Shown: positions 1-48,860 of the stretch, one piece after another | Layout: the number at the start of each line of letters is the position of its first letter | Position numbering within the stretch: the stretch's first letter is position 1 | Source of the DNA: an uncultured Gemmatimonadota bacterium | Lineage (GTDB): Bacteria; Gemmatimonadota; CAZMKB01 | Assembly (NCBI GenBank): GCA_964654825.1 | Contig: CAZZKG010000014.1 | Coordinates: 1,416-65,415 of the forward strand | Reading direction: 5' to 3' | DNA length: 64,000 nt | Position numbers and translations under genes: made by a program | The notes under the pieces: generated by a model | Databases searched by the model: none | Told to the model about the DNA's origin: nothing | Seen by the model: the letters and a program-made list of their open reading frames with translations, nothing else

Positions 1-1961
1 AAAGGTTCGAAGAGGAGCCCCAGATTCTTCTCGCTGATCCCTACGCCGCTGTCAGCAATCTTCACCAGGGTTTCCCCTTCGTCGAACGAGAGTGTCACCT
101 TCAGATTACCCCCATCAGGCATGGCCTGCATCGCGTTCTGCATTATATTGAAAAAAACCTGACCGAGGAGTACAGGATCCCCCTCGATTCTCGGAATCGA
201 AGGGTGATCGTGCAGGTCGAGAAATACCTGGATATTCTCCGGAAATGGTATCCGTTCTGCGGCCTGCTCGAGGATCTCGTGGAGATCGACAGCCTTCAGG
301 TGAGGAACGAGCGGGCTCGCGAAGGTGAGAAGGTCCGAAACGATGGTCTCCGCAATGTTGATCTCCTTCTCGATAATCATCATGTGTTTCGTGACCTGTG
401 TCCTCCTCTCATCTCCGGAATCCGCCTCAACCTTCCCCTTCAGATAGTACATTGAGTTCTTGATAACCCCTAAGGCATTTCGAATCTCGTGGGCCACCCC
501 CGCGGCAACCTTGCCCATCGAAGAGAGGCTTTCAGACTGGATGAGCTCCTGCTGGATCACGGCAAGCTCCTCCTGCCTTTCTTTGAGCGATCTCGCCATT
601 TCATTGAAGGAAGAAGCGAGATATCCTATCTCATCGTCCGAGTCAGGCCCCCCGGAAACCTGATAACTCAGATCGCCGCCACCGATCCTTCTCGCTCCTT
701 CCGCGAGCTCTCTCACGGGATGAGCGATCTTCCGTGAAGCCCAGAAGGTCACCAGCAGCACTACCAGGACCAGGAAAAAGAAAAAGAAGAACATCTGGGT
801 GATCATCATGCTCGTCCGGTCTTTCATCTTCTCTTCTGTATTGAGTAAAGCCCTGGTCACCAATTCGACAGGGACGACGAGCCCGAGTACCCAGCCCGAG
901 GTTACCACGGGGTGATAGGCAATGATCTTCTCCGCTCCGTCAACAACAACCCTGCCGATGCCTGAAGCACCCGAGGCCATGAGTGTGAGCTCCGGCTGCA
1001 TTTCGGGCCTAGCCCTGTCGAACAGGTTGAAATGATCCGGTCGTACGCCAGTGTCGTAACCCAGATCAGGATACGCGTTGTCGGTGAAAGCGATGACCGA
1101 TCCATCACGTCGCATCAGGAACGCATAACCGCCCTCTTGGGAATTCAGCCCGAATATCCTGTCGGAGAGCCTCTCGACTGTCACGTCGATCCCGACGACC
1201 CCGCAGAACTTCCCTTCTACCGTATAGACCGGGCAGGAGCAAGTGACCATGAATCCCCGTCCTGCGACATCGAGATAGACTTCCGACCACACCGGCAGAT
1301 GGGAGGGATTGTGCACCGGGTCGGCAAGGTAGTAGATCGGGTGCCCCTCAACGTCGAGGTCGGGCGCGAGCGTACCTCCCAGCACGGCCTCCTCGGCATC
1401 GAACCACGGGAATCCCCTCGACAGTCTGCTCGAAGAGGTGAAATACACATACGCCATATTTTCATCCCCTTCATACACACTTCTCAGAATCGGATCGAGA
1501 TATTCGGTGAGAAGGATTTCATTCTCGAGACTCTCAGTCAGGGGAACACCATCAGCGACGAACAGGTTCGATCCCTCTCTGGCAGAGCTCCAGAAGAATC
1601 CAAGCCGGTGTGTCTCGTATGTCCTCGCCCGGTCGAGCCTGAAACTGGAGGGGTTCCCGTACAGCTCAGCGGTCACCGACGCGACCGCTTTTGCTTCCCC
1701 TTCTATCCTCAGAAGTTCTGTTTCGAGAGTAAGTGCGTAGTTTTTCGTGTCGCTGGAAAGAGATGATTCCAGTTTCTCAACGAGGGCCGCTTTCCCTTCT
1801 TCCAGAGAGACTTCCCGAATCTGCTTCGTTGTGGTGAACATGAGGAAGGCGGTGATCCCGACAGGTACCAGGGTCATGAGGATGAGAAGGAGGAGGAGCT
1901 TGGAAGCGATGTTCTTCCTGGGCAGCTTCCGTCTCTCTGAGTATCCTTTGTGTCTCTCCAT
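1..1961 (-). CDS. Sensor histidine kinase, 3'-partial (C-terminus beyond window start). Architecture: N-terminal TM, periplasmic Cache-like sensor, second TM, HAMP, HisKA, HATPase_c.
   Basis: Minus-strand translation from the ATG at ~1959-1961 reads MERHKGYSERRKLPRKNIASKLLLLLILMTLVPVGITAF... with no stop before coordinate 1. Further in are a TM stretch FFFFFLVLVVLLVTF, an H-box VAAGVAHEIRNALGVIKNS and a G1 box IADSGVGI. The gene is absent from the ORF track because it has no in-window stop. Confidence 0.8.
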   Translation of the reverse strand, partial: MERHKGYSERRKLPRKNIASKLLLLLILMTLVPVGITAFLMFTTTKQIREVSLEEGKAALVEKLESSLSSDTKNYALTLETELLRIEGEAKAVASVTAELYGNPSSFRLDRARTYETHRLGFFWSSAREGSNLFVADGVPLTESLENEILLTEYLDPILRSVYEGDENMAYVYFTSSSRLSRGFPWFDAEEAVLGGTLAPDLDVEGHPIYYLADPVHNPSHLPVWSEVYLDVAGRGFMVTCSCPVYTVEGKFCGVVGIDVTVERLSDRIFGLNSQEGGYAFLMRRDGSVIAFTDNAYPDLGYDTGVRPDHFNLFDRARPEMQPELTLMASGASGIGRVVVDGAEKIIAYHPVVTSGWVLGLVVPVELVTRALLNTEEKMKDRTSMMITQMFFFFFFLVLVVLLVTFWASRKIAHPVRELAEGARRIGGGDLSYQVSGGPDSDDEIGYLASSFNEMARSLKERQEELAVIQQELIQSESLSSMGKVAAGVAHEIRNALGVIKNSMYYLKGKVEADSGDERRTQVTKHMMIIEKEINIAETIVSDLLTFASPLVPHLKAVDLHEILEQAAERIPFPENIQVFLDLHDHPSIPRIEGDPVLLGQVFFNIMQNAMQAMPDGGNLKVTLSFDEGETLVKIADSGVGISEKNLGLLFEP

Positions 1962-23265: not shown

Positions 23266-23483
23266 ATTTAAAACCGTTTCAGAGGGTTCCGGAGGAGCAT
23301 TTCCGACAGACCGGGACAGCCAGAAGTATATCACGTACCGGGTTTCGGTGTCCGGATGTTTCGATTGCTCGTTGGGCCTGATTCACTCCATTTCAGTAAT
23401 CTCACACGGCCTCGACAGGCTCTCCTTCAAACGTTATCCTGAAGACGGGCCTTATATATGCCACGTTCTAAAAGGAGGAATAG

Positions 23484-24608
23484 ATGGACAAGCGAAAACT
23501 GTTTTTCACACTCCTCATGTTCATCTTGTCTTCTTCGACCATGTTCGGTCAGGGTTCGAAGCGGATCGTTCTGAACCACTTCATCGCCGATCCCGACCAG
23601 CGTACCCGGGTGTACATCACTGATGCCGATGGCGTCGGCCAGGATGTCACACTGACCTTCTACGGTGAGACCGGGGACATCATCGGTCAGAAGAGGATGA
23701 GCCTTCCCTCGAATGGGACTGTCGTCGTCAACCCTTTTGATGTCATCAAGAGACGTGCATACGGAAAAGCGGTAGCTGAAGCCAGTTCCAGGATAATTGG
23801 AGAGTACTGGCAGATCGTCGAGACAGAAAAAGCCGGATACTCCGTCGCGGTCCCTCTCCAACCTGCTCTGGGACATGACAGGCTTCTCGTCCAGCATTTC
23901 GTGTCCGATCCGGATCTGACATCGAACATTTATATTTCCGACACCCGCGGGAAGGGAGACATCCCGGTCGAAATCGCGTTTTTCGATGAGAGTTCCAATC
24001 TGCTCTCCAAGATCAACCGGACCATCCCCTCGAACGGGAGTCTGACCATTAAACCCTGGAGTGTGCTTCAGAAAAAGGTTGTCGGTTCCGCTCACATCAC
24101 AACTAAAGGCGGACCGATCGTCGGTGAGTACTGGCAGATCGTGAGTGGGAAGTTTGAGGACCCGAAAAAGGGTAAGAAACGATTCATGAATTATGCCGTG
24201 GCGGTCTCCCTCGACGGAATAATTGATACTCCTCTGAAGATTGTCGAGACTCCGACCGAGATCCGGCTGACACTGGAAGTACACTTCGATGTGGACAAGG
24301 CGGACATACGGGATGTGGACAAACCGAACCTCGAAGAAGCCTCCAAGATCATCAAGCGTTACTTCTCCGATGGGGAGGTTGTGATGGTGGAGGGTCACAC
24401 CGACGAGACTGGAGAAGCCGACTACAACCTGAAGCTCAGTCAGCAGAGAGCCAACACAGTGGAGGGTTATCTCGTGTCGAGTCTCGGCTTGAGTAACGAT
24501 CAGCTCAAAGCTATAGGGTATGGTGAAACGAGACCGGTTGTACCGGGAGCTACCGGTGCGGCAGGGCAGGTGAACCGCAGGGTAGTGTTCAGTATTCCGA
24601 AGATCTGA
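23484..24608 (+). CDS. Secreted OmpA-family protein with two N-terminal copies of an unrecognised ~90-aa repeat ending in GEYWQIV
   Basis: Signal peptide. Repeats at ~27-113 and ~134-220. C-terminal OmpA domain VEGHTDETGEADYNLKLSQQRANTVEGYL...GYGETRPV...NRRVVF. Confidence 0.7.
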   Translation: MDKRKLFFTLLMFILSSSTMFGQGSKRIVLNHFIADPDQRTRVYITDADGVGQDVTLTFYGETGDIIGQKRMSLPSNGTVVVNPFDVIKRRAYGKAVAEASSRIIGEYWQIVETEKAGYSVAVPLQPALGHDRLLVQHFVSDPDLTSNIYISDTRGKGDIPVEIAFFDESSNLLSKINRTIPSNGSLTIKPWSVLQKKVVGSAHITTKGGPIVGEYWQIVSGKFEDPKKGKKRFMNYAVAVSLDGIIDTPLKIVETPTEIRLTLEVHFDVDKADIRDVDKPNLEEASKIIKRYFSDGEVVMVEGHTDETGEADYNLKLSQQRANTVEGYLVSSLGLSNDQLKAIGYGETRPVVPGATGAAGQVNRRVVFSIPKI

Positions 24609-24621
24609 GGAGGGTATCACG

Positions 24622-25386
24622 ATGAGAAACTGGAAATATCTCATACCATTGATTTTGTTTTTGATCTCTACCACACCGATTCTGGCTCAGGATTACGGAA
24701 AACTCGTGCTCAATCACATCGTGTCGGATCCCAACCAGGTGACGCGGATATACGTGACCGACTTCGAGGGTGTGGCACCCGAGGTGACTGTTACGTTTTA
24801 CTCGGAGGCGGGAGACATTATCGGACAGAGGACAATGTCGATCCCGAGAAACGGCACCGTACCGGTAAAACCTCACGACATACTGCAGCGAGCGGTCGTC
24901 GGAAACGTGCGGGTTGACGGGCACGGGGCTCACATCGCCTGCGAGTACTGGCAGATCATCGAGGATAAAAAGAATGACTTCTCCTATTCGATCGGGGTAC
25001 CCGGACAGGCGGCGGGAGGCCACCACAACCTCATCGTACAGCACTTCGTTGCGGATCCCGACCTCAACACGATCATCTTCCTCACCAATCCCGATGACGG
25101 ATCTTCCGCCGGCGTGTCACTCGAATTCCATGACGAGAGCGGCGGTGTTCTGGCAAAAGTGGAGAGGACCATCGACGCGAACGCGACCCTCGTCCTCAAA
25201 CCTTATGACGTCCTAAAGAAAAAAGCATACGGGAATGTCCACATAAAATCGTCCGGCGCAGCGGTGACCGGGGAATACTGGCAGCTCGTGGATGTCAAAA
25301 GAAAGGACGAGAAGACCGGCAAGAAAAAAGTGGAGAAATATGGAGTGGCGATACCACTTCAGTCTCTAACGCTCTTCGGTAAATAA
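24622..25386 (+). CDS. Secreted paralog of the upstream gene: two copies of the same ~90-aa repeat, no OmpA domain
   Basis: Signal peptide. Repeats KLVLNHIVSDPNQVTRIYVTD...CEYWQIIE and NLIVQHFVADPDLNTIIFLTN...GEYWQLVD. Confidence 0.7.
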   Translation: MRNWKYLIPLILFLISTTPILAQDYGKLVLNHIVSDPNQVTRIYVTDFEGVAPEVTVTFYSEAGDIIGQRTMSIPRNGTVPVKPHDILQRAVVGNVRVDGHGAHIACEYWQIIEDKKNDFSYSIGVPGQAAGGHHNLIVQHFVADPDLNTIIFLTNPDDGSSAGVSLEFHDESGGVLAKVERTIDANATLVLKPYDVLKKKAYGNVHIKSSGAAVTGEYWQLVDVKRKDEKTGKKKVEKYGVAIPLQSLTLFGK

Positions 25387-32432: not shown

Positions 32433-33995
32433 GTGGAAACGTTGAGAAAACCTGCATCGAAACTGTTATTGCTCACCCTGTTCTTCGCTCTCGTTTCGAC
32501 CGCTCACGGCGGAGACGAATCCCCGTATATCTATTCTTCGAGAGAAAACGTCCCCCGCCATTTGTCCTTCGTCACGGACAACCCGAAGTTCAACAGAATG
32601 TGGACCGAAACGATCATCGAAATCCTCTCCCGACAACTTGCGAACGGACAGCTGATCGAGAGTTCCGTCGAGTCGGGGCTCTATCCGAACAGCTTCCCCC
32701 GCAGCGTCACTCCAGTCATCCTCATCAAGAGCGGATACCTGGACCAGGCCCGGAAACGGCTCGATTTCCTCTGGGATCATCAGAAAAAAAACGGCTCGTT
32801 CTGGAATTTCCACGATCGGGAAGCGAAGGGAGGGGGAATCGTCGAGGAAGACGGCGGGTGCTACGTCGTCGGGCAAACCTATCTCTACTACCTGTACTCG
32901 GGAGACAGGAGTTACCTGGAGAAGCGGTGGAGTAAAACAGTAAGATCGATGAATTTTCTCGAAGATCTCTTTGACAAAGAGCTCAACCTCTTCTATTCCA
33001 CGGCCGGATACTCGGAAGGGAACATCAGGGGAGGATATAACATCTATCACCAGGCGATATCCGCCTACGGATTCCGGTCGGCAGCTGGTATCGCCCTGGC
33101 ACTCGGAAAAGACGGGGCCGCCGGCCGATACACTTCGTATGTCGAAAAGGTAAAAAAGGGTGTCTACGAGAACCTGTACAACCGGGAGAAAGAGAGGTTT
33201 TCCTTCCAGAGAAGCTCTGAAGGCGGGTTCTTCGATCCGCCGTATCCGGCTTTTCTCGTCCTCTCCTACTATGACATACTGGATCCCCGTGAGAAGTCAT
33301 TCGAAAACTCCTTCACCTACATGATGGAAGGTCCACGCTTCGGCGTGTACAGGGATGAGATCTTCGGGCTGGAACCGTTCGATCACAACCACTCTACCGG
33401 GAGAGGTTTCTGGCTCGGACAGAACGGTCACGGGTGGGTCATCCCCTATCTCCTGAAAGCGGGGAGGATGGAGGAAGCCGATGATTGGATCAGGAGTCTC
33501 ATCTCGATGACGGACGAGAAAACGTTTCTCGTTCCCGAGCACATCAACTGGAGTCACTGGGACCCTGACGGCGGCGAGTGGGCGGGCAAAAAGTACGGTG
33601 TGTACCCCGAGCCCTCGGCGTGGGTCGATCCGGGGAACCTCTACGCTCTCTCCACTGCCATGCACATGGTTTTCACCATCGTGGACGCCGATCCGGGAGA
33701 CCCGGGGCAGACCGTGTACTTTCGAGTCCCCCCTTCATTCGGTATGGTCGCAGTCACCAATCTCAGATCGACTCACGGGTACATCGATGCCAGTTTCGTT
33801 CAGTACGAAGGGAGCGTAAAGATTTCGATCGCCGGAGAAGGCGAGGGGAAGATCGTCATCGTCGGTCACGGTGAAACGGCGGAAGTCGAGAGGGACGGCA
33901 TACTGTACGACCGGTGGGTCATCGATCAGAACGGAGACCTCGACATCAGCACGGATTTCGAGCTGCACAAGTTTGTGATTCACAGCGGTGAGTAG
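32433..33995 (+). CDS. Secreted (alpha/alpha)6-barrel glycoside-hydrolase-like protein (glucoamylase/GH15-GH63-like fold), last gene of the plus-strand glycan operon
   Basis: Signal peptide; recurring aromatic/acidic helix-hairpin pattern. The family assignment is tentative. Confidence 0.45.
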   Translation: METLRKPASKLLLLTLFFALVSTAHGGDESPYIYSSRENVPRHLSFVTDNPKFNRMWTETIIEILSRQLANGQLIESSVESGLYPNSFPRSVTPVILIKSGYLDQARKRLDFLWDHQKKNGSFWNFHDREAKGGGIVEEDGGCYVVGQTYLYYLYSGDRSYLEKRWSKTVRSMNFLEDLFDKELNLFYSTAGYSEGNIRGGYNIYHQAISAYGFRSAAGIALALGKDGAAGRYTSYVEKVKKGVYENLYNREKERFSFQRSSEGGFFDPPYPAFLVLSYYDILDPREKSFENSFTYMMEGPRFGVYRDEIFGLEPFDHNHSTGRGFWLGQNGHGWVIPYLLKAGRMEEADDWIRSLISMTDEKTFLVPEHINWSHWDPDGGEWAGKKYGVYPEPSAWVDPGNLYALSTAMHMVFTIVDADPGDPGQTVYFRVPPSFGMVAVTNLRSTHGYIDASFVQYEGSVKISIAGEGEGKIVIVGHGETAEVERDGILYDRWVIDQNGDLDISTDFELHKFVIHSGE

Positions 33996-42568: not shown

Positions 42569-44650
42569 CTATCTCTTCTCAGACAGCAGTCTTCCGGCAA
42601 CAGCTGCCACATTCCCGGGGGTAAACCCGAATTTCTTCTGAAGTTCCTTCAGGGGAGCCGACGCTCCGAAGGTCTTCATCCCGACATGTATACCCTTGCA
42701 ACCCACGTAACGTTCCCAGCCTAGGCCCGAGGCCTGTTCCACTGAAATCCTCGCTTCGACATCGGGCAGGATCACGCTGTCCCTGTATGCCTGATCCTGT
42801 TCTTCGAAGAGCTCCCACGAAGGCATGCTTACCACACGCGTCTTGATACCATCTTCCGTTAGGAGTTCCCGTGCCTCGAGGCAGAGGGACACTTCGCTTC
42901 CGCTCGCGAGAAGAATAACATCAGGACGACCTTTATCCGGATCCGCTAGCACATACGCACCCCTCGAGAGCCCCTGTGCCGGAGTCAGGAGAGATCGGTC
43001 GAGAACGGGGAGCGCCTGTCTCGAAAGCACTAACGCGACAGGCTTGTGCTTGAGCCGCGCAATCACCTTCCAGGCTTCGACGACCTCGTTCGCATCGGCG
43101 GGTCTAAGGGTGATGAGACCGGGTACTGCCCGCAACGAAGCCAGCTGCTCCACGGGTTGATGAGTCGGCCCATCCTCTCCCACACCGATCGAGTCATGGG
43201 TGAATATATAGATAACCGGAAGCTCCATGAGGGAGCTCAACCTGATGGCCGGCCGTGAATAATCACTGAAGATCAGAAACCCCGACCCATAGGGTCTGAT
43301 TTTGCAGTGAGAGAGCCCGTTCAGGATGGATGCCATGGCGTTCTCACGGATGCCGAAATGGAAATTCCGTCCGCTGTAATCATCACTCGTAAAATCTCCC
43401 GCTCCGTCCAGAACGATACGCGTCTTCGTCGACGGCGCCAGATCGGCGGAGCCGCCGATGAGCCACGGTACGTTTTGAGCTATTGCATTCAAAACTCTGC
43501 CTGACGCTTCGCGACCGGACATGCCTTTTGAATCCGGAGTGAACGCCGGGAGGTCTTTATCCCAGCCATCCGGGAGCAGACGGTGCTGCATGCTGTATAG
43601 TTGATCGGCCAATTCCGGATAGTGCTCTTTATACTCATCGAACTTCTCGATCCAGGCATCCCGGAGAGAACGACCCCGCTTCCCGATTTTCTCGTCGAAG
43701 TGCTCCCGGACACCATCGGGGATGAGATATCTGGCATCCTCCGGCCAGCCGTAGTTGCGCTTCGTCAGGCGAATTTCTTCTTCACCGAGGGGCGCTCCGT
43801 GAGCGGCGCTCGTGTCCTGCTTGTGAGGGGAGCCATACGCGATGTGGCTGTCCACGATGATGAGGGTCGGCCTGTCATCCTCCTTCCTGAAGGTTTGAAG
43901 AGCACGATCGAGCATCTGCAGATCATTGGCATCACCGACTCTCGTCACGTTCCAGCCGTAAGCTGCGAAGCGGGCGGCAACATCCTCGGTAAAGGTCCAG
44001 TCCGTGTGGCCTTCGATGGTTATCTTGTTGTTATCATATATCCAGCAGAGATTGGTGAGCTTGAGGTGGCCGGCAAGTGAAGCCGATTCAGAAGTGACAC
44101 CTTCCATCATGTCGCCGTCTCCGCAGAAGGCATAGACGTCGTAGGAGAACATTTCGAATCCGGGTCGGTTGAAATAGCTCGCCATCCATTTGCCGGCAAT
44201 GGCCATCCCCGTGCTGACAGCGACACCCTGCCCGAGCGGACCGGTCGTCGTCTCGACGCCGGAGGTCCATCGATACTCAGGGTGGCCCGGGCATTTGCTG
44301 TCGAGCTGCCTGAACCGCTTGATATCCTCGAGCGTAACGGCCGGCTCGCCGATGGTCTCATACTTCGGATTTACCGCCTTCACCGAACACAGATGCAGCA
44401 TCGAATAGAGCAGCATCGAAGCATGCCCGATTGACAGAATGAAACGATCACGGTTCGGCCAGATCGGGTCAGCCGGATCGTACCGCAGAAACCGCTGCCA
44501 CAGGCAGTACACCACCGGGGCGAGGGCCATGGCAGTGCCCGGGTGGCCCGAGTTGGCATCCTGCACGGCATCCATCGAAAGTGTACGAATCGTGTTGATG
44601 CACAGTTGATCGATCTGCCCAAAACCGGTGGATCCATTTCTCGACTGCAT
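42569..44650 (-). CDS. tkt: Transketolase
   Basis: ...IRTLSMDAVQDANSGHPGTAMALAPVVYCLW... ThDP-binding motif; 693 aa. Confidence 0.9.
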   Translation of the reverse strand: MQSRNGSTGFGQIDQLCINTIRTLSMDAVQDANSGHPGTAMALAPVVYCLWQRFLRYDPADPIWPNRDRFILSIGHASMLLYSMLHLCSVKAVNPKYETIGEPAVTLEDIKRFRQLDSKCPGHPEYRWTSGVETTTGPLGQGVAVSTGMAIAGKWMASYFNRPGFEMFSYDVYAFCGDGDMMEGVTSESASLAGHLKLTNLCWIYDNNKITIEGHTDWTFTEDVAARFAAYGWNVTRVGDANDLQMLDRALQTFRKEDDRPTLIIVDSHIAYGSPHKQDTSAAHGAPLGEEEIRLTKRNYGWPEDARYLIPDGVREHFDEKIGKRGRSLRDAWIEKFDEYKEHYPELADQLYSMQHRLLPDGWDKDLPAFTPDSKGMSGREASGRVLNAIAQNVPWLIGGSADLAPSTKTRIVLDGAGDFTSDDYSGRNFHFGIRENAMASILNGLSHCKIRPYGSGFLIFSDYSRPAIRLSSLMELPVIYIFTHDSIGVGEDGPTHQPVEQLASLRAVPGLITLRPADANEVVEAWKVIARLKHKPVALVLSRQALPVLDRSLLTPAQGLSRGAYVLADPDKGRPDVILLASGSEVSLCLEARELLTEDGIKTRVVSMPSWELFEEQDQAYRDSVILPDVEARISVEQASGLGWERYVGCKGIHVGMKTFGASAPLKELQKKFGFTPGNVAAVAGRLLSEKR

Positions 44651-44764: not shown

Positions 44765-44850
44765 TTAATTCAAGAGGAACCTAACAGGTTCTCACTGACC
44801 ACGACTCCGGGCAGGAAGAGCACACCGATTAAATTGGATTGTCTGAAGAG
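44765..44850. repeat. Diverged direct repeat A (~85 nt, ~85 % identical to 46726-46811): displaced copy of the AGCS gene 3' end
   Basis: taattcaagaggaacctaacaggttctcactgaccacgactccgggcaggaagagcacaccgattaaattgg versus taattcaagtggaacctgacaggctctccctgaccactactccggacaaaaagagtaaaccgatcaaattgg. On the minus strand it encodes ...NLIGVLFLPGVVVSENLLGSS*, against the AGCS C-terminus ...NLIGLLFLSGVVVRESLSGST*. Confidence 0.7.
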
Positions 44851-44985
44851 AATCCGGAGGCGGAAAGCTTTGTGCATATCGATCTCCACATACACCTCTT
44901 TTCTGCTTGCAACAACGATTGCTTTAAAGTAATATCTAATCATGGCGCGTCTCCAATTGCAGGAGAGAATGAAAAAACCCGGCAT
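44770..44985 (-). pseudogene. Fragment of an AGCS-symporter 3' end (only the last ~25 codons are AGCS-like); the rest of the 71-codon ORF is unrelated read-through
   Basis: See repeat A. The N-terminal 45 aa (MPGFFILSCNWRRAMIRYYFKAIVVASRKEVYVEIDMHKAFRLRILFRQS) have no AGCS similarity. Confidence 0.45.
44907..44935 (+). promoter_or_regulatory. Putative sigma70-type promoter of the inserted HEAT/PRiA4-ORF3 gene
   Basis: TTGCAA-N17-TAATAT about 65 nt upstream of the ATG at 45000. Confidence 0.35.
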
Positions 44986-44999
44986 GAAAGGATGAGAGC

Positions 45000-46514
45000 A
45001 TGAGGTCGGTAGGAGAAGAAATCAAAAAGTTTATGAAGGAATGGGATGAGGAAGATCTATATGAAATCCTTTATGAAAAATTGGCCAGGGAGCGTGCGAA
45101 GGTAGTCGACAAACTTGTCTCCCTGCGAAAACCAGCCGTCCCCCATTTGTTAGCGATGCTGGAGGAACAGGACACCTGGAACCCACTGATAGCGATCGAT
45201 GCTCTGGGGGAGATTGGTGATAAAAGGGCGATAAAGCCCCTGGTCGACATGCTGGAAGACCCGGATTTTGGTGAAGCCGCCTGTCATGCACTGAAGAAAT
45301 TCGGACCTGTATGTATCCCGGATGTAATCGCGAAGCTCAGATACAGGATCGCAAATCCCGTTGAAGAAGAATCGACATTTGTGAAAATAACATCTTATGC
45401 CCTGACGACGATCGGGGAAATCAGGTCCGATGAATCAATCGGATTTCTCAATGCATTGTTGGACGACTATATGTCTGAAATTCCGGAGGAGCCATTTGAT
45501 CCGGCGGAACACGACTGGAAATACAGGAATGTCGACTTCTTCCACCTGTTGGATTGTCTGGTCAAGCAGCAGGATGAAAGGGCTATTCCTCATATCAAAA
45601 AGGCACGGGATTTATTTCCGAAAAATTACACCGAGTATACGGTCTGCCAGCTCGCCATTGAAAGGATAGAAAAGGGGGAAATGGAAGGGTATCTCCCCAT
45701 GGATGCTCTGGAGATCGCAATGCCTTTTGAAACCATTATGAAAATGTTATCCGGGGGAGAAATCGGAGGGGAAAGTGGTTTTAATGGAGAATCCGGCGAG
45801 GACTTTCCGCTCGAAGAGGAGTGGGGCCTGAAAGTGAAAAAGGAAATCCCGAAGGGCGCGTGTTGCCTCTGCGGCAAAACTTATACTGGGGCTGGGATGA
45901 CGAGGCACTTGAGATCGTGCCTGTCGAAGGATGTATCAACAAAGCCGCCGGGCGGGAATAGTCTCGAAAAAACAAAGACTTTTCATCTTGTCATCAGCGG
46001 GGCTTACCTCTCTGAATATTGGATGCATCTCGAAGTTCCCGCCCGTGCCACTTTGAATGACCTTGATAAGTTCCTCAGGCGGATCTGGCTCGAATGCTGT
46101 GGCCATATGAGTGCGTATACCATCGAAGGGACGACCTACTCCTCCGGCCCGATTAAAGAGTACGGCGACAAGAGTATGTATGCCAAACTGGGCAATGTCC
46201 TGTCTGCCGGGATGACATTTCACTATGAGTATGACTTCGGCTCGACAACCAGACTTGTCATACGAGTCGCCTCGGAGCTGGAGAGACCTGTAGAGGGTAA
46301 ACTGATCAAGCTCCTGGCCAGGAATGACCCCCCGGGGATCACCTGTGAGGCGTGCGATAATAAGGCCACCTGGGTATGCAGCCAGTGCATTTATGATGAC
46401 ACAGGCTGGCTTTGCGACCGGTGTGCTTCAGAACATGAGTGCGGTGAGGAGATGCTCCTGCCTGTCGTGAATTCCCCCCGCGTCGGCACCTGTGCTTACG
46501 GAGAAGTAGTGTAA
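45000..46514 (+). CDS. HEAT-repeat (PBS-lyase-like) + plasmid pRiA4b ORF-3-like domain + Cys-rich (zinc-finger-like) C-terminal protein, of lower GC than its surroundings
   Basis: HEAT repeats ...AIDALGEIGDKRAIKPLVDMLEDPD... . PRiA4_ORF3-like block FHLVISGAYLSEYWMHLEVPARATLNDLDKFLRRIWLECCGHMSAYTIEG...FHYEYDFGSTTRLVIRV (compare the family pattern YxLKVxLxGxxPPIWRRxxVPxxxTLxxLHxVIQxAMGW...YxYDFGDxWxH). C-terminus CEACDNKATWVCSQCIYDDTGWLCDRCASEHEC. Confidence 0.7.
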   Translation: MRSVGEEIKKFMKEWDEEDLYEILYEKLARERAKVVDKLVSLRKPAVPHLLAMLEEQDTWNPLIAIDALGEIGDKRAIKPLVDMLEDPDFGEAACHALKKFGPVCIPDVIAKLRYRIANPVEEESTFVKITSYALTTIGEIRSDESIGFLNALLDDYMSEIPEEPFDPAEHDWKYRNVDFFHLLDCLVKQQDERAIPHIKKARDLFPKNYTEYTVCQLAIERIEKGEMEGYLPMDALEIAMPFETIMKMLSGGEIGGESGFNGESGEDFPLEEEWGLKVKKEIPKGACCLCGKTYTGAGMTRHLRSCLSKDVSTKPPGGNSLEKTKTFHLVISGAYLSEYWMHLEVPARATLNDLDKFLRRIWLECCGHMSAYTIEGTTYSSGPIKEYGDKSMYAKLGNVLSAGMTFHYEYDFGSTTRLVIRVASELERPVEGKLIKLLARNDPPGITCEACDNKATWVCSQCIYDDTGWLCDRCASEHECGEEMLLPVVNSPRVGTCAYGEVV

Positions 46515-46725
46515 AGTGTAATTACCTGATAAATCCATTGCACAAGGATTTCTCAAAATCGGATATATCGAAACCAGAGATTTTAGACATTGATCCTCGA
46601 TTATTTGGTCGATGAGGATGCCAAATGGCCCTTAACCCAATAGCTTTCACCGAAAAGGTCGTCAAGAATTTCCTAAGTGATATACACACGATTGTCTCGG
46701 GTCATCAATGCATCCCGACACATAG

Positions 46726-46811
46726 GTAATTCAAGTGGAACCTGACAGGCTCTCCCTGACCACTACTCCGGACAAAAAGAGTAAACCGATCAAATTGGGG
46801 ATTGTCCCGAG
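46726..46811. repeat. Direct repeat B: the functional 3' end of the AGCS gene (partner of repeat A)
   Basis: See repeat A. The similarity starts ~6 nt 3' of the AGCS stop codon and runs ~85-95 nt into the coding sequence. Confidence 0.7.
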
Positions 46812-48065
46812 ACCATTCAAAATATCGGCGATGCTCCAGACCGTCTCGACCTGGAGTACGGTCCCGGTGATCATAATGATGCAGAAAGCCCAGCGGAACG
46901 GCTTCCTCACCCGGCTCCCGAACAGGTAGGAAAAACACTGCTCACCGTAGTACGGCCAGCTGATGAGTGTCGAGTAACCGAAGAGGAAAGAAGCCGATAC
47001 AACGATGAGACCGAGTCCCGGAAGGGTGTTTTCGAAGCAGTTTCTCGTGAGTGCCGTACTCGTTGTCCCCCCCGTCCAGAGCCCGCTGGAGAGGATGACG
47101 ACACCGGTTATCGTACAGACCACCAGGGTATCTACGAACACATCCATCATCGCCAGGAGCCCCTGGCTCTTCGGGTCCCGGGTACGGGCGGCACCGTGAG
47201 CGATGGGTGCGCTGCCGGTCCCGGCTTCATTCGAATAAATTCCTCTCGAGATCCCGTATCTCATTGCCATCCTGACGGAGGCACCGGCAAATCCTCCGGC
47301 GGCTGCCATGGGAGTGAAGGCCGCGTCGAACACCATAAAAAACACTCCCGGTATCACTTCGATGTTGCGCACGATTACATACAACCCTCCGCTGAGATAG
47401 AGGAGAACCATTATGGGTGAAAGCTTTTCAGCGATCTTCCCAATTCTCTTGATACCACCGATGATAACCAGCCAGGTCAGTACCGAGAGGACGATACCCG
47501 TGAGGAGATGTGGAGCACCGAATTCCTGCTCGAACGCGATAGCGATGGAGCTCGTCTGGACGATTGAAGTGGAAACCAGCGTCCGCACGCCCAGGAAAAA
47601 TGCGAAGGCCGCGGCCAGATGACGGAATCCGGCCCCTTTACTGAGATAGTACATCGGCCCCGCGGCGATCGAGCCGTCCTCGTTCCTCCGGCGGTATTTA
47701 ACGCCGAGGAAGGCTTCGGCATACTTGGTGGCCATACCGAGGAATCCGCTCACCCACATCCAGAAAAGGGCACCCGGGCCTCCGGAAACGATGGCGGTAG
47801 CCACCCCGGCTATGTTTCCATTGCCGACAGTTCCGGCGAGGGAGGTCATGAGTGCCTGAAACGGCGTGATATCTCCCGGCACATCGGAAGAGACGAGCCG
47901 CCTGGCTTTCCCGAACATGATGGAGAGGGCTCGTCCGAATTCACCGACCTGCATCAGTCTCAACCTGAAGGTGAGAAGCAGCCCGACTCCGAAAAGGAGC
48001 GCGAGAAGGGGAATACCCCAGAGGAGCGTTCCCAGAAATTGGATGATTGAATTTATCTGGTTCAT
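46731..48065 (-). CDS. Alanine/glycine:cation symporter (AGCS family)
   Basis: MNQINSIIQFLGTLLWGIPLLALLFGVGLLLTFRLRLMQ... and 10-11 TM helices typical of sodium:alanine symporters. Confidence 0.85.
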   Translation of the reverse strand: MNQINSIIQFLGTLLWGIPLLALLFGVGLLLTFRLRLMQVGEFGRALSIMFGKARRLVSSDVPGDITPFQALMTSLAGTVGNGNIAGVATAIVSGGPGALFWMWVSGFLGMATKYAEAFLGVKYRRRNEDGSIAAGPMYYLSKGAGFRHLAAAFAFFLGVRTLVSTSIVQTSSIAIAFEQEFGAPHLLTGIVLSVLTWLVIIGGIKRIGKIAEKLSPIMVLLYLSGGLYVIVRNIEVIPGVFFMVFDAAFTPMAAAGGFAGASVRMAMRYGISRGIYSNEAGTGSAPIAHGAARTRDPKSQGLLAMMDVFVDTLVVCTITGVVILSSGLWTGGTTSTALTRNCFENTLPGLGLIVVSASFLFGYSTLISWPYYGEQCFSYLFGSRVRKPFRWAFCIIMITGTVLQVETVWSIADILNGLGTIPNLIGLLFLSGVVVRESLSGST

Positions 48066-48197: not shown

Positions 48198-48233
48198 AAA
48201 AAAAGCAGGGCACCCACACAAGCGGGGCGCCCT
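48198..48233 (-). terminator. Rho-independent terminator-like hairpin in the AGCS leader, downstream of the small ORF (minus strand)
   Basis: Stem AGGGCGCCC/GGGUGCCCU (9 bp, one G-U pair) followed by GCUUUUUUU on the minus strand. It is preceded by a second hairpin ggggattgc...gcaatcccc at ~48241-48269. Confidence 0.5.
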
Positions 48234-48372
48234 ACTTAATTGGGGATTGCTGGGGAGGAAGGCAATCCCCGAGCTGAGGAACCTCAAGAGGGCATTTCTG
48301 CAAGGTATTCCAACGGGCTTGCCAACGAGCATGGGCAGCGCCCTTAGAGGTTCTTCGGAAACTTCTCTGGCT

Positions 48373-48540
48373 TCAACCTACCTTGACAAGTTTCTTCGCC
48401 TTGAATATCCGGCAATTATGATGTTTTCTCGAAAGACAGTAGTTGAGGATCTCATCCGGCGTCGGCGGTGCCAGGCCGTAGATGTGTTCTCTGCAACCGT
48501 TGAATAGATTAGGACAAATACCCGGTTTTTTGGTCTTCAT
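48373..48540 (-). CDS. Small Cys-rich ORF (55 aa), MKTKKPGICPNLFNGCREHIYGLAPPTPDEILNYCLSRKHHNCRIFKAKKLVKVG, with a strong RBS; not in the ORF track (<60 aa)
   Basis: AGGAGG lies 8 nt upstream of the ATG. Two CX6C pairs suggest a zinc-ribbon-like fold. It lies between the S8 protease and AGCS genes. Confidence 0.35.
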   Translation of the reverse strand: MKTKKPGICPNLFNGCREHIYGLAPPTPDEILNYCLSRKHHNCRIFKAKKLVKVG

Positions 48541-48860
48541 GAATCGGCCCTCCTGTTCAAACCGGCCTGTTCACGACCTTCACCTCACTGATCTCGAATC
48601 AATCAGAATGAGTAATTTATAAACATTTTCATTTCCCATTCTGCCGATCTTGTGTTCATTATACACATGCAAGTGTTATGCCAGTACCCCGAACCTCATA
48701 ACTCATTGAAAACAAAGGAGATTTATTTTAGAGCAGGGCAGAAAGGCGGAAAAAGTGTCGAATATTTATTACCCATGTACAGAATTAGTCGATATTACCA
48801 TGAAACATATTGCCCCGACGAGGAAAGTTTTACCCCGGGCGCTCCCTGCCGTGCGTACAT

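What the first reader, a model, noticed from the sequence alone, without database searches (positions are those of the whole stretch)
44765..46811. Foreign ~1.9 kb insertion at the 3' end of the AGCS symporter gene, bracketed by diverged ~85-nt direct repeats of that gene end
The last ~75 coding nt plus ~7 nt past the stop of the AGCS gene (46726-46811) reappear at 44765-44850 at roughly 85 % identity. The copy encodes ...NLIGVLFLPGVVVSENLLGSS*, against the native ...NLIGLLFLSGVVVRESLSGST*. Between the copies lies a single gene at 45000-46514 with visibly lower GC (~48 % versus ~58-60 %) and its own TTGCAA-N17-TAATAT promoter. That gene encodes HEAT repeats, a plasmid pRiA4b ORF-3-like domain (a family typical of plasmids and mobile DNA, function unknown) and a Cys-rich tail. 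This geometry is what an integrative element leaves when it targets the 3' end of a protein gene and brings its own substitute 3' end. The displaced original end becomes the diverged far repeat. No integrase is present, so this is either a decayed or miniature element, or a cassette moved in trans.
Basis: partly seen in the sequence, partly recalled or inferred. Interest (0 to 1): 0.8.

Follow-up and report, generated by a model that had tools for sequence, protein, structure and literature searches.

The report
Foreign gene inserted in transporter gene end
A single foreign gene of unknown function has been inserted into the tail of an amino-acid transporter gene, and the transporter stays intact only because a second copy of its last 25 codons lies at the junction; this is a clear but ordinary gene-transfer scar of a known kind.

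Summary
The segments 44766-44843 and 46727-46806 are direct repeats: 67 of 78 bases are identical, with one 2-nt indel. The next-best match in the window scores 17 against 53. The proximal copy is the live 3' end of the AGCS gene (46731-48065, minus strand). The distal copy is a frameshifted relic lying 119 nt upstream of transketolase.

Five related metagenome-assembled genomes (AGCS 75-78 % identical) keep the order protease-AGCS-pentose phosphate genes with no insert. Two of them have AGCS-transketolase-Tal/PGI exactly as here, so the ~1.9 kb is a lineage-specific insertion. Three assemblies from two samples share the arrangement.

The cargo gene (45000-46514) encodes HEAT repeats, an MM3350/PRiA4_ORF3 fold (confirmed by structure prediction) and zinc-ribbon-like Cys clusters. 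A 94.7 %-identical copy lies in a different context in another genome, next to a ParS/RES toxin-antitoxin pair. There, homology stops at the cargo stop codon.

No recombinase, transposase, inverted repeats or attC-like site was found in the insert, and no recombinase or transposase among the 47 larger ORFs of the 64 kb.

Best reading (~0.4): single-crossover integration of foreign DNA carrying its own AGCS 3' end, as prophage e14 does at icd or as integrase-less CIMEs do.

Rivals:
- A one-off illegitimate or homology-facilitated insertion.
- A relic of a tandem AGCS paralogue.

This is a new member of a known kind, of modest interest.

The parts
44766..44843 (-). Copy A: a dead relic of the AGCS 3' end. 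It covers the last ~24 codons, the stop codon TGA at 44770-44772 and 4 nt beyond. A 2-nt deletion near its upstream edge puts it out of frame.
   Evidence: It is 86 % identical to 46727-46806. It carries non-conservative changes at positions conserved in relatives. It lies 119 nt upstream of the transketolase start, where AGCS ends in the relatives L009 and L090.
44844..44999 (+). Left filler of the insert, containing the 5' region of the cargo gene. It includes a weak sigma-70-like motif at 44908-44936 and a GGA-rich ribosome-binding region before the ATG at 45000.
   Evidence: It has no similarity to AGCS or to host intergenic DNA. From 44958 onward it is 93 % identical to L126 up to that contig's end. 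The motif matches 8/12 consensus positions and was not called by the scan.
45000..46514 (+). Cargo gene of 504 aa. It has N-terminal HEAT repeats, a CxxC...H...C motif, an MM3350/PRiA4_ORF3-fold domain and a C-terminal cluster of Cys/His (zinc-ribbon-like).
   Evidence: - Pfam hits.
- AlphaFold model with mean pLDDT 84.6.
- Foldseek matches to alphaRep HEAT proteins and to 2i1s MM3350 (rmsd 2.6 Å over 125 columns, probability 1.0).
- Compared with the L126 copy, dN/dS is 0.35, so the gene is under purifying selection.
46515..46726 (.). A 212-nt spacer between the convergent stop codons of the cargo gene and AGCS. GC is about 0.39-0.45 and its origin is unknown.
   Evidence: It is not homologous to the sequence downstream of the cargo gene in L126. 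It is not robustly similar to host intergenic DNA or to 1.2 Mb of fetched loci. Its predicted fold is unremarkable (z = -1.9). No terminator-like or Rfam hit falls in it.
46727..46806 (-). Copy B: the live 3' end of AGCS (last ~25 codons, stop at 46731-46733, plus 4 nt).
   Evidence: It is in frame with the 444-aa ORF and retains the family-conserved ...IPNLIGxLFLSGVVVRES motif. Three of its five Leu codons are host-rare TTR codons (p = 0.002 under host usage), and it also uses TTT and GTA.
46731..48065 (-). The target gene: an AGCS (alanine/glycine:cation symporter), intact.
   Evidence: PF01235 scores 424.8 bits. The closest homologues are 75-78 % identical.
44770..44985 (-). Chimeric ORF of 71 aa (57 aa from an internal ATG), created by the insertion. 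Insert-derived codons are fused to the relic's transmembrane-helix codons. It is probably a by-product.
   Evidence: Listed. A 57-aa gene is called at the corresponding place in the JGI contig L005. It has no credible family hit.
42569..44650 (-). Transketolase, the ancestral downstream neighbour of AGCS. It defines the far flank of the insertion.
   Evidence: Pfam hits. The same AGCS-transketolase-Tal/PGI-6PGD order occurs without an insert in L009 and L090-L092.

Best explanation
A horizontally acquired single-gene islet (about 44844-46726) was inserted into the last ~25 codons of the AGCS symporter gene.

**Shown**
- The insertion is lineage-specific.
- The AGCS gene is intact because a second copy of its 3' end (copy B) abuts the insert.
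- The other copy (A) is a decaying relic sitting where the gene originally ended, next to transketolase.
- The cargo gene has recently moved between unrelated genomic contexts.

**Inferred**
- The incoming DNA was, or became, a circle that already carried an AGCS-3'-end-like segment.
- It recombined once with the chromosomal gene near the gene-internal edge of that segment, around GACAATCC(CC)AATTT at 44831-44843 and 46792-46806.
- The imported end then became the working end, and the original end was pushed ~1.96 kb away. This is Campbell-type integration, as e14 and phage 21 do at icd.
- The recombinase is not encoded in the islet or found in the 64 kb. The islet is therefore either a stripped-down remnant (CIME-like) or was integrated in trans.

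**Cargo.** The cargo protein is probably a protein- or nucleic-acid-binding scaffold. It plays no demonstrated part in the insertion.
For: **Repeat.** It is real and unique in the window.

**Empty sites.**
- L009 (Candidatus Glassbacteria MAG) and L090-L092 have AGCS, a ~100-nt annotated gap (~190 nt to the likely true start), then transketolase-Tal/PGI-6PGD.
- L001-L003, L004 and L089 have S8 protease-AGCS followed directly by the next gene.

**Assemblies.** The arrangement recurs in three assemblies from two samples: L005 at 99.8 % and L127 at 99.75 %.

**Cargo mobility.** L126 is 94.7 % identical over window 44958-46509 only. Its flank is a ParS/RES toxin-antitoxin pair with GC3 0.485, which matches the cargo gene (GC3 0.56-0.58) better than the host (0.65-0.71).

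**Decay pattern.** Copy A has derived non-conservative changes plus a frameshift. Copy B has derived synonymous or conservative G/C>A/T changes to host-rare codons.

**Polarity.** Four of seven polarisable changes fall on B, although B offers only ~18 % of the neutral sites (p = 0.023). This argues that the two ends diverged while both were functional, so one was imported.

**Boundary.** High similarity stops within 4 nt of the stop codon. That is expected if only the coding part of a substitute end is kept by selection.

**Precedents.** e14 at icd leaves a 163-bp pseudo-3' end (PMC13626634, PMC6379469). Integrase-less CIMEs of 1.2-13 kb sit in the 3' ends of rpmG, rpsI, fda and rplL (PMC7563491).
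Against: - No tyrosine or serine recombinase, transposase, relaxase or phage gene was found in the insert or among the 47 larger ORFs of the window (JGI Pfam marks).
- The repeats share no long identical core. The longest exact runs are about 8-10 nt, and a 2-nt indel lies next to the presumed crossover.
- The near-identical cargo copy in L126 lacks the spacer and the AGCS end, so the proposed element is not seen as a unit.
- No other contig among the fetched loci carries copy A, copy B or the spacer.
- The compositional signal is modest (z = -2.2), and codon usage is not an outlier.
- All divergence statistics rest on 78 nt. The timing test is not robust (p = 0.02 or 0.51, depending on how the cargo divergence is split between lineages).
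- The closest available relatives are only 75-78 % identical in AGCS, so the insertion cannot be dated.
Confidence: 0.4

Rival explanations
1. A one-off illegitimate or homology-facilitated insertion with no dedicated element. There are two variants.
- A linear foreign fragment entered by transformation or similar. It was anchored by homologous recombination in AGCS and joined at its other end by microhomology (GGATTGTC, 8 nt) to codon -25 of the recipient's AGCS. This is homology-facilitated illegitimate recombination from a related donor that already had the gene next to AGCS.
- The fragment was ligated into a staggered break, and ~80 nt of target was duplicated on the spot.
For: - No recombinase was found in the insert or among the 47 larger ORFs.
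- An isolated 8-nt identity block lies at the outer edge of the repeat, after a 2-nt indel.
- The cargo gene and its homologues occur in many unrelated contexts, with homology breaking within 0-80 nt of the ORF ends: window/L126, L006/L007, L104/L105 and L107/L109. This points to repeated ad hoc recombination rather than one element type.
- L126 lacks the spacer and the AGCS end.
Against: - The in-situ variant predicts that nearly all change falls on the neutral relic. Yet 4 of 7 polarisable changes are on the live copy (p = 0.023).
- It also needs the duplication to end within ~4 nt of the stop codon by chance, roughly 5 in 120 positions of the intergenic space.
- The donor variant needs an unseen relative in which the gene already lay beside AGCS. 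That only moves the question back one step.
- Target duplications of ~80 nt are not a usual product of illegitimate joining (established knowledge, not tested here).
Confidence: 0.3
2. Copy A is the last remnant of a second, tandem AGCS paralogue. AGCS duplicated in this lineage, and both copies were functional for a while. The foreign gene then replaced the promoter and the first ~1,260 nt of the downstream copy by an insertion-deletion.
For: - The A-B divergence (dS ~0.37, omega ~0.39) shows signs of purifying selection on both copies. Its point estimate exceeds the cargo-copy divergence (dS 0.11).
- A and B share a lineage-specific tail, L-x-G-S-(T/S)-stop, that no relative has. They are each other's closest relatives: 80 % identity on the 51-nt core against 55-71 % to relatives.
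- Flank-similarity scores hint at tandem AGCS paralogues in other genomes fetched here, such as L048 and L050. The ORFs there were not identified.
- A redundant copy is a harmless landing place, and no recombinase is needed.
Against: - None of the five related loci has a second AGCS.
- The 212 nt after copy B show no robust similarity to the sequence after copy A or to the AGCS upstream region, as a tandem duplication would predict.
- The duplication endpoint would have to lie ~4 nt after the stop codon, or all downstream similarity would have to have decayed.
- It needs two or three events.
Confidence: 0.2
3. Assembly artefact: a chimeric contig, or a collapsed or mis-joined repeat, in a metagenome assembly.
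For: The window comes from a metagenome-assembled genome. The left junction (copy A side) is covered only by the window and L005, which may derive from the same sample.
Against: - Three assemblies (the NCBI MAG contig, JGI 3300002231 and JGI 3300010934) agree to 99.75-99.8 % across the insert and the right junction.
- The two repeat copies differ at 11 positions, so an assembler would not join them.
- Both flanks are syntenic with relatives.
Confidence: 0.02

Closest known systems
Prophage e14 / phage 21 integration into the 3' end of icd in Escherichia coli
   Same: - The foreign DNA lies inside the 3' end of a protein-coding gene.
- The element side supplies a slightly different working 3' end.
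- The displaced original end persists as a pseudo-fragment at the far junction (icdC, 163 bp) (PMC13626634, PMC6379469).
- The same geometry holds here, with 78-80 nt.
   Different: - e14 is ~15 kb, encodes its own integrase and excises on SOS induction.
- This insert is 1.9 kb with one non-recombinase gene, and no integrase was found in 64 kb.
- The repeats here are more diverged (86 %) and one is frameshifted.
- Excision has not been tested.
Cis-mobilizable elements (CIMEs): att-flanked, integrase-less remnants of ICEs/IMEs in 3' ends of rpmG, rpsI, fda, rplL and tRNA genes
   Same: - Small size (classical CIMEs are 1.2-13 kb).
- Cargo only, with no recombination or transfer genes.
- Flanked by direct repeats at the 3' end of a housekeeping gene (PMC7563491).
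   Different: - CIMEs are recognised by att sites shared with a known ICE or IME family, and are usually found in tandem with one.
- No ICE or IME, cognate integrase or related att site is known here.
- The host is a Glassbacteria/Gemmatimonadota-like MAG, not a streptococcus.
Homology-facilitated illegitimate recombination and insertion-duplication by a single crossover
   Same: - One homologous anchor plus one microhomology joint, or a single crossover of a circle. Either yields foreign DNA bracketed by a duplicated stretch of the target.
- The 8-nt identity block at the outer junction fits a microhomology joint.
   Different: - These processes were described experimentally in naturally transformable bacteria (established knowledge, not checked in the library here).
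- Natural examples that preserve a gene through a duplicated 3' end are not a recognised class.
- The donor arrangement they require is hypothetical.
PRiA4_ORF3 / MM3350-like passenger proteins of transposons (ISAzba1-group transposons)
   Same: The C-terminal half of the cargo protein has this fold. The family recurs as a passenger on mobile DNA (PMC3942029).
   Different: - No transposase or terminal inverted repeats are present here.
- This subfamily adds HEAT repeats and Cys clusters.
- It is rare on plasmids (4 of 72,556) and absent from the phage collections searched.
- No function is known for the family.

Membership tests
Integrative element using the 3' end of a protein gene as att site (e14/phage 21-icd type) | Direct repeats that duplicate the target gene's 3' end bracket the insert. 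| tested here: met
   67/78 bases identical, and unique in the window.
Integrative element using the 3' end of a protein gene as att site (e14/phage 21-icd type) | The target gene stays intact through the proximal copy, and the distal copy is a non-functional fragment. | tested here: met
   The 444-aa ORF has a conserved C-terminal motif. The distal copy is frameshifted and carries S>P, R>S and S>N.
Integrative element using the 3' end of a protein gene as att site (e14/phage 21-icd type) | An uninterrupted ('empty') site exists in related genomes. | tested here: met
   L009, L090-L092, L001-L004 and L089. These relatives are only 75-78 % identical in AGCS.
Integrative element using the 3' end of a protein gene as att site (e14/phage 21-icd type) | The element encodes a tyrosine or serine integrase next to an att site. 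| tested here: not met
   The only gene is the HEAT/MM3350 protein. There is no recombinase family hit in it or in the 46 other larger window ORFs scanned (for the JGI Pfam marks).
Integrative element using the 3' end of a protein gene as att site (e14/phage 21-icd type) | attL and attR share an identical core where the crossover occurred. | tested here: inconclusive
   The longest exact runs are only 8-10 nt (TAATTCAAG, CTGACCAC, GGATTGTC), and a 2-nt indel lies beside the outer block.
Integrative element using the 3' end of a protein gene as att site (e14/phage 21-icd type) | The element excises to a circle and restores the target gene. | not testable with these tools
   This needs reads or PCR from samples 3300002231 and 3300010934.
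CIME (cis-mobilizable element) | Flanked by att sites but devoid of recombination and transfer genes. | tested here: met
   Direct repeats are present and the single cargo gene is the only gene.
CIME (cis-mobilizable element) | The att sites belong to a known ICE or IME family, or the element lies in tandem with one. | tested here: not met
   No integrase, relaxase, coupling protein or VirB4 family appears among the window ORFs. The rest of the genome is not available.
Integron gene cassette | An attC site (imperfect inverted repeat with R''/R' cores) lies downstream of the ORF, with intI/attI nearby. | tested here: not met
   The spacer has no significant inverted repeat and an unremarkable fold. 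No integrase was found. No dedicated attC model was available.
Insertion sequence / transposon | Transposase gene, terminal inverted repeats and a short target-site duplication. | tested here: not met
   There are no terminal inverted repeats at 44844/46726 and no transposase. The duplication is ~80 nt.
PRiA4_ORF3 (PF07929) / MM3350 fold | A Pfam score above the gathering threshold and a matching fold. | tested here: met
   27.6 bits against a cutoff of 26.6. Foldseek matches 2i1s with rmsd 2.6 Å over 125 columns at probability 1.0.
HEAT_2 / PBS-lyase HEAT-like repeats | A Pfam score above threshold and an alpha-solenoid fold. | tested here: met
   42.3 and 33.4 bits. AlphaRep matches by sequence and by fold.
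zf-SWIM | A Pfam hit. | tested here: not met
   Nothing at E <= 0.1. Cys/His clusters are present at residues ~288-308 and ~448-481 but remain unclassified.
AGCS (PF01235) symporter | A full-length Pfam hit. | tested here: met
   424.8 bits, covering residues 63-438.

The most novel reading that the evidence does not exclude
The HEAT(-MM3350) genes may form a family of promiscuous single-gene cassettes that move between bacterial and archaeal genomes by an undescribed route, without a linked recombinase, and with breakpoints hugging the ORF. The window would then show one such landing, made harmless by a long duplication of the target.

Supporting hints:
- Several pairs of contigs share 80-99.9 % nucleotide identity over the gene alone, or with unrelated sequence on at least one side.
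- Four of 21 other loci have direct repeats bracketing the gene.

Against it:
- Those repeats are of unrelated kinds: a MITE-like element, pseudogene copies and structured intergenic repeats.
- The enrichment over control genes is marginal (p ~0.05).
- Homology to L126 ends at the stop codon, leaving no conserved 3' terminus for a self-mobile unit.
Probability: 0.06. Interest if true: 0.7.

Novelty: new member of a known kind. Interest (0 to 1): 0.3.

Why it matters
It is a clean, well-bounded example of a foreign gene entering the coding end of a housekeeping transporter without destroying it, in a poorly known lineage (relatives are labelled Candidatus Glassbacteria or Gemmatimonadota). Empty sites are available, and so is a near-identical cargo copy elsewhere for comparison.

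If a cognate integrase turns up elsewhere in the genome, the islet would define a new att site (the AGCS 3' end) and a minimal trans-mobilised islet. If none exists, it would be a natural case of insertion-duplication rescuing a gene.

Either way it adds little that is conceptually new. The function of the HEAT/MM3350/zinc-ribbon cargo protein remains open, and the way that family turns up in unrelated contexts may deserve a survey of its own.

Tried and rejected
- **Rfam scans.** The scans of 42-50 kb and of four homologue loci gave nothing usable. The one group II intron fragment (E = 0.13) is below threshold.
- **Promoter and terminator scan.** No promoter was called, and the only terminator-like sites lie inside the cargo ORF.
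- **Terminal inverted repeats or an attC-like hairpin.** None was found.
- **Defence and phage family scans of the cargo protein.** PADLOC gave only weak HEAT noise, and PHROGs gave nothing.
- **Viral contigs, phage records and plasmids.** There were 0, 0 and 4 hits, the plasmid hits covering the C-terminal half only, in uninformative neighbourhoods.
- **Extension of the repeat past the stop codon.** The result was marginal and depended on the target definition, so I dropped it.
- **Similarity of the spacer or filler to the AGCS upstream region** (a test for tandem duplication). Nothing was convincing.
- **Timing test comparing repeat divergence with cargo divergence.** It is not robust.
- **Direct repeats as a general property of the HEAT gene family.** The repeats proved heterogeneous. 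The L107 repeats are a ~98-nt MITE-like insert absent from L109. The L104 repeats are two copies of a frameshifted ORF that I recognise only from memory as Y1/IS200-like and that has no Pfam hit. The L110 repeats are structured elements between ParE/RHH modules. Enrichment over controls is p ~0.05.
- **tRNA genes as att sites in those loci.** None was found.
- **Exact look-up of the Tal/PGI protein** to find strain variants. It is not on record.
- **Third protein search, with the AGCS C-terminal 90 aa.** It returned no candidates and was wasted.
Full report
**Observation.** The window holds an AGCS symporter gene on the minus strand (46731-48065, 444 aa; PF01235, 424.8 bits). Its last ~25 codons, its stop codon and 4 further bases (46727-46806) recur at 44766-44843. 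The two copies share 67 of 78 aligned bases, with one 2-nt indel near the gene-internal edge.
- Scanning the whole window on both strands with this 80-mer gives a score of 53 for the partner and 17 for the next-best place.
- Against dinucleotide shuffles of the flanks, z is 25.5.
- Similarity beyond 4 nt past the stop codon is not robust. Three of 300 shuffles reach the score with a narrow target, and 20 of 300 with a wider one.

**What lies between the copies.** There are three parts:
- a 156-nt stretch (44844-44999);
- one 504-aa ORF on the plus strand (45000-46514);
- a 212-nt spacer (46515-46726).

The ORF hits HEAT_2, HEAT_PBS and, just above threshold, PRiA4_ORF3. It has no zf-SWIM hit. 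An AlphaFold model built on 49 homologues has a mean pLDDT of 84.6. Foldseek matches its N-terminal half to alphaRep-type HEAT solenoids. It matches its C-terminal half to 2i1s, the MM3350 protein that represents the PRiA4_ORF3 fold (rmsd 2.6 Å over 125 columns, probability 1.0). Two Cys/His clusters flank that domain.

Composition is lower in GC than the host, but only moderately. The gene is 0.502 and the insert 0.486, against a mean of 0.558 for 47 other ORFs (z = -2.2). Codon-usage distance is unexceptional. The proposed promoter exists as a motif at 44908-44936 but matches only 8 of 12 consensus positions, and the scan did not call it.

**Comparative evidence.** The nearest AGCS proteins in 5.8 billion sequences are 75-78 % identical. 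Their contigs keep the local gene order.
- L001-L003, L004 and L089 have S8 protease, then AGCS, then the next gene directly.
- L009 (a Candidatus Glassbacteria MAG) and L090-L092 have AGCS, an annotated gap of ~100 nt (~190 nt to the likely true start), then transketolase, a transaldolase/PGI fusion and 6PGD. This is exactly the order in the window, minus the insert.
- In the window, the distal copy lies 119 nt upstream of transketolase, which is where the gene ends in those relatives.

The ~1.96 kb is therefore a lineage-specific insertion, and the distal copy marks the ancestral position of the gene end. The arrangement is not an assembly accident. A JGI contig from sample 3300002231 (L005, 99.8 %) and another from sample 3300010934 (L127, 99.75 %) show the same structure.

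**The cargo gene has moved recently.** Its 90 % cluster contains a second full-length member, P0241, on a 2.5-kb contig of a MAG labelled Desulfobacterales.
- That contig (L126) is 94.7 % identical to window 44958-46509 and to nothing else in the window. Upstream, the homology runs to the contig end. Downstream, it stops at the cargo stop codon.
- There the gene is followed by a ParS-type antitoxin and a RES toxin. These have GC3 0.485, closer to the cargo gene (0.56-0.58) than to the window's genes (0.65-0.71).
- The two copies differ by dS 0.11 and dN 0.04 (omega 0.35), so both are maintained by selection.
- The next homologue (53 %) is in the same metagenome in yet another context.
- Thirty-one further homologue loci have unrelated neighbourhoods, with locus GC from 0.32 to 0.54. 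Some lie next to toxin-antitoxin modules, and none lies next to AGCS.
- Phage and viral collections hold no relative, and only 4 of 72,556 plasmids do.

**Which copy is which.** Four relatives serve as outgroups.
- The distal copy carries derived, non-conservative changes at conserved positions (S>P, R>S, S>N) plus the 2-nt deletion. It is decaying.
- The live copy carries derived synonymous or conservative changes, all G/C to A/T, giving codons that are rare in the host. These are TTG, TTA and TTT; GTA is also host-rare but could not be polarised. Three of its five Leu codons are TTR (p = 0.002 under host usage). The relic also has two TTR codons, so this signal is weak.
- Both copies share a tail, L-x-G-S-(T/S)-stop, that no relative has. 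They are closer to each other (80 % on a 51-nt core) than to any relative (55-71 %). Both therefore come from this lineage or a close one.
- Between them, dS is ~0.37 and dN ~0.14 over 21 codons.
- Four of seven polarisable changes lie on the live copy, although it offers only ~18 % of the neutral sites (p = 0.023). This argues against a duplication made on the spot at the time of insertion. It favours two ends that diverged while each was functional.
- A timing argument from the cargo divergence depends on how that divergence is split between lineages and is not robust.

**Mobility machinery.**
- No terminal inverted repeats were found.
- The spacer has no attC-like hairpin, and its fold is unremarkable (z = -1.9).
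- There are no tRNA or Rfam features.
- Pfam scans of 47 ORFs across the 64 kb found no integrase, transposase, relaxase or phage gene. The region is chromosomal housekeeping: oligopeptide ABC transport, glycine cleavage, an exopolysaccharide cluster, pentose phosphate genes and ZnuABC.

**Mechanism.** The shown facts are a foreign insertion, a duplicated gene end, a relic at the ancestral position and an intact target.

The best-fitting mechanism is a single reciprocal crossover. Foreign DNA that already carried an AGCS-3'-end-like segment recombined with the chromosomal gene near the gene-internal edge of the repeat. This is what e14 and phage 21 do at icd, where a 163-bp pseudo-3' end (icdC) is left at the far junction (PMC13626634, PMC6379469). 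It is also what ICEs and IMEs and their integrase-less derivatives, the CIMEs (1.2-13 kb), do at the 3' ends of rpmG, rpsI, fda and rplL (PMC7563491). That the strong similarity ends at the stop codon fits a substitute end kept only by selection on the protein. I give this reading about 0.4.

It is weakened by three things:
- no recombinase was found;
- the repeats lack a long identical core;
- the L126 copy carries neither the spacer nor the AGCS end, so the 'element' is not seen as a unit.

The rivals are:
- A one-off illegitimate or homology-facilitated insertion (about 0.3). The 8-nt block GGATTGTC at the outer junction would be the microhomology joint.
- A relic of a tandem AGCS paralogue, mostly overwritten by the foreign gene (about 0.2). 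This explains purifying selection on both ends. However, no relative has a second copy, and the spacer shows no trace of duplicated host sequence.
- An assembly artefact (about 0.02).

**Side issue followed and set aside.** Several pairs of homologue loci share 80-99.9 % nucleotide identity over the gene alone, or with unrelated sequence on at least one side. Four of 21 other loci have direct repeats bracketing the gene, against 6 % of 386 control genes (p ~0.05). The repeats are of unrelated kinds:
- a ~98-nt MITE-like insert in L107 that L109 lacks;
- two copies of a frameshifted ORF in L104 with no Pfam hit;
- structured ~110-nt repeats between ParE/RHH modules in L110;
- a 50-nt intergenic repeat in L098.

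This does not amount to a common mechanism. It does show that the family lives in recombination-prone accessory DNA.

**Verdict.** The case is a new member of a known kind: an integrase-less islet in the 3' end of a protein gene with a substitute gene end. Interest is modest at 0.3.

Noticed in passing
window 48373-48540 (-), within the conserved stretch 48218-48555: A 55-aa Cys-rich small ORF lies between the S8 protease and AGCS. It is 75-76 % identical to ORFs at the same place in two relatives (L004 6410-6577 and L089 4433-4600). The surrounding DNA is 77 % identical to L001. I ran no family search on it. An Rfam scan found no riboswitch there.
   Followed up: partly
window 44770-44985 (-): The insertion created a chimeric ORF of 71 aa (57 aa from an internal ATG). 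It fuses insert-derived codons to the relic's transmembrane-helix codons. It starts 15 nt from the cargo gene's ATG on the other strand. JGI's gene caller calls it in L005.
   Followed up: partly
L126 1-2486 (GCA_046753865.1, JBHHUQ010000471.1): A 94.7 %-identical copy of the cargo gene lies next to a ParS(Xre/MbcA)-RES toxin-antitoxin pair in a MAG labelled Desulfobacterales. Homology ends at the stop codon, where a 1-nt indel changes the last three residues (EVV to GSS).
   Followed up: yes
L006 1216-2908 vs L007 1-1694 (both JGI 3300002231): The 53 %-identical homologue P0122 occurs on two contigs of the same metagenome at 99.9 % identity. The homology breaks 67 nt after its stop codon, and the tails are unrelated.
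   Followed up: partly
L110 739-850 and 1869-1975: A HEAT-only homologue sits between two RHH/ParE toxin-antitoxin modules. About 110-nt direct repeats separate it from them. Their central hairpin has swapped arms in the two copies (AGACCT-TGC-AGGTCT against GGGTCT-TGC-AGACCC). This looks like a cassette array, but no attC model was available to test it.
   Followed up: partly
L107 186-283 vs L109 2191-2199: A ~98-nt element with inverted termini (GTACGTGTTTAG...CTAAACACATAC) is inserted upstream of the HEAT-PRiA4 gene in L107 and is absent from the otherwise 93 %-identical L109. A partial second copy lies downstream of the gene. It looks MITE-like.
   Followed up: partly
L104 1-492 and 1775-2266: Direct repeats of 495 nt (89.5 % identical) bracket a HEAT-only gene. 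They encode a frameshifted ORF with a YHVLARGNERRPIF motif. I recognise this only from memory as Y1 (IS200/REP-associated) transposase-like, and it has no Pfam hit.
   Followed up: partly
window 44834-44845 and 45549-45560: The 12-mer TTGGATTGTCTG at the outer junction of the relic recurs exactly inside the cargo gene. About 0.2 such matches are expected by chance in 2.7 kb. It is probably coincidence, but it sits right on the junction.
   Followed up: no
L008 4350-4976 vs L114, L101, L094: The HEAT-like part of a Collierbacteria (CPR) gene is 81-84 % identical at the nucleotide level to genes on unrelated metagenome contigs. In L008 it lies next to an rve-type integrase gene and a LAGLIDADG-like ORF.
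   Followed up: no
L090 1581-1670 and L009 1603-1692: The transketolase ORFs of the relatives are called ~27-30 codons too long. Conservation with the window's protein begins at ...IDQLCINT, so the true AGCS-transketolase gap there is nearer 190 nt than 100 nt.
   Followed up: yes
window 23427-24674 (-), 1032-1766 (+), 32433-33995 (+): Several sizeable ORFs have no Pfam hit. One of them (23427-24674) is a low-GC3 ORF (0.55) inside the exopolysaccharide cluster.
   Followed up: no
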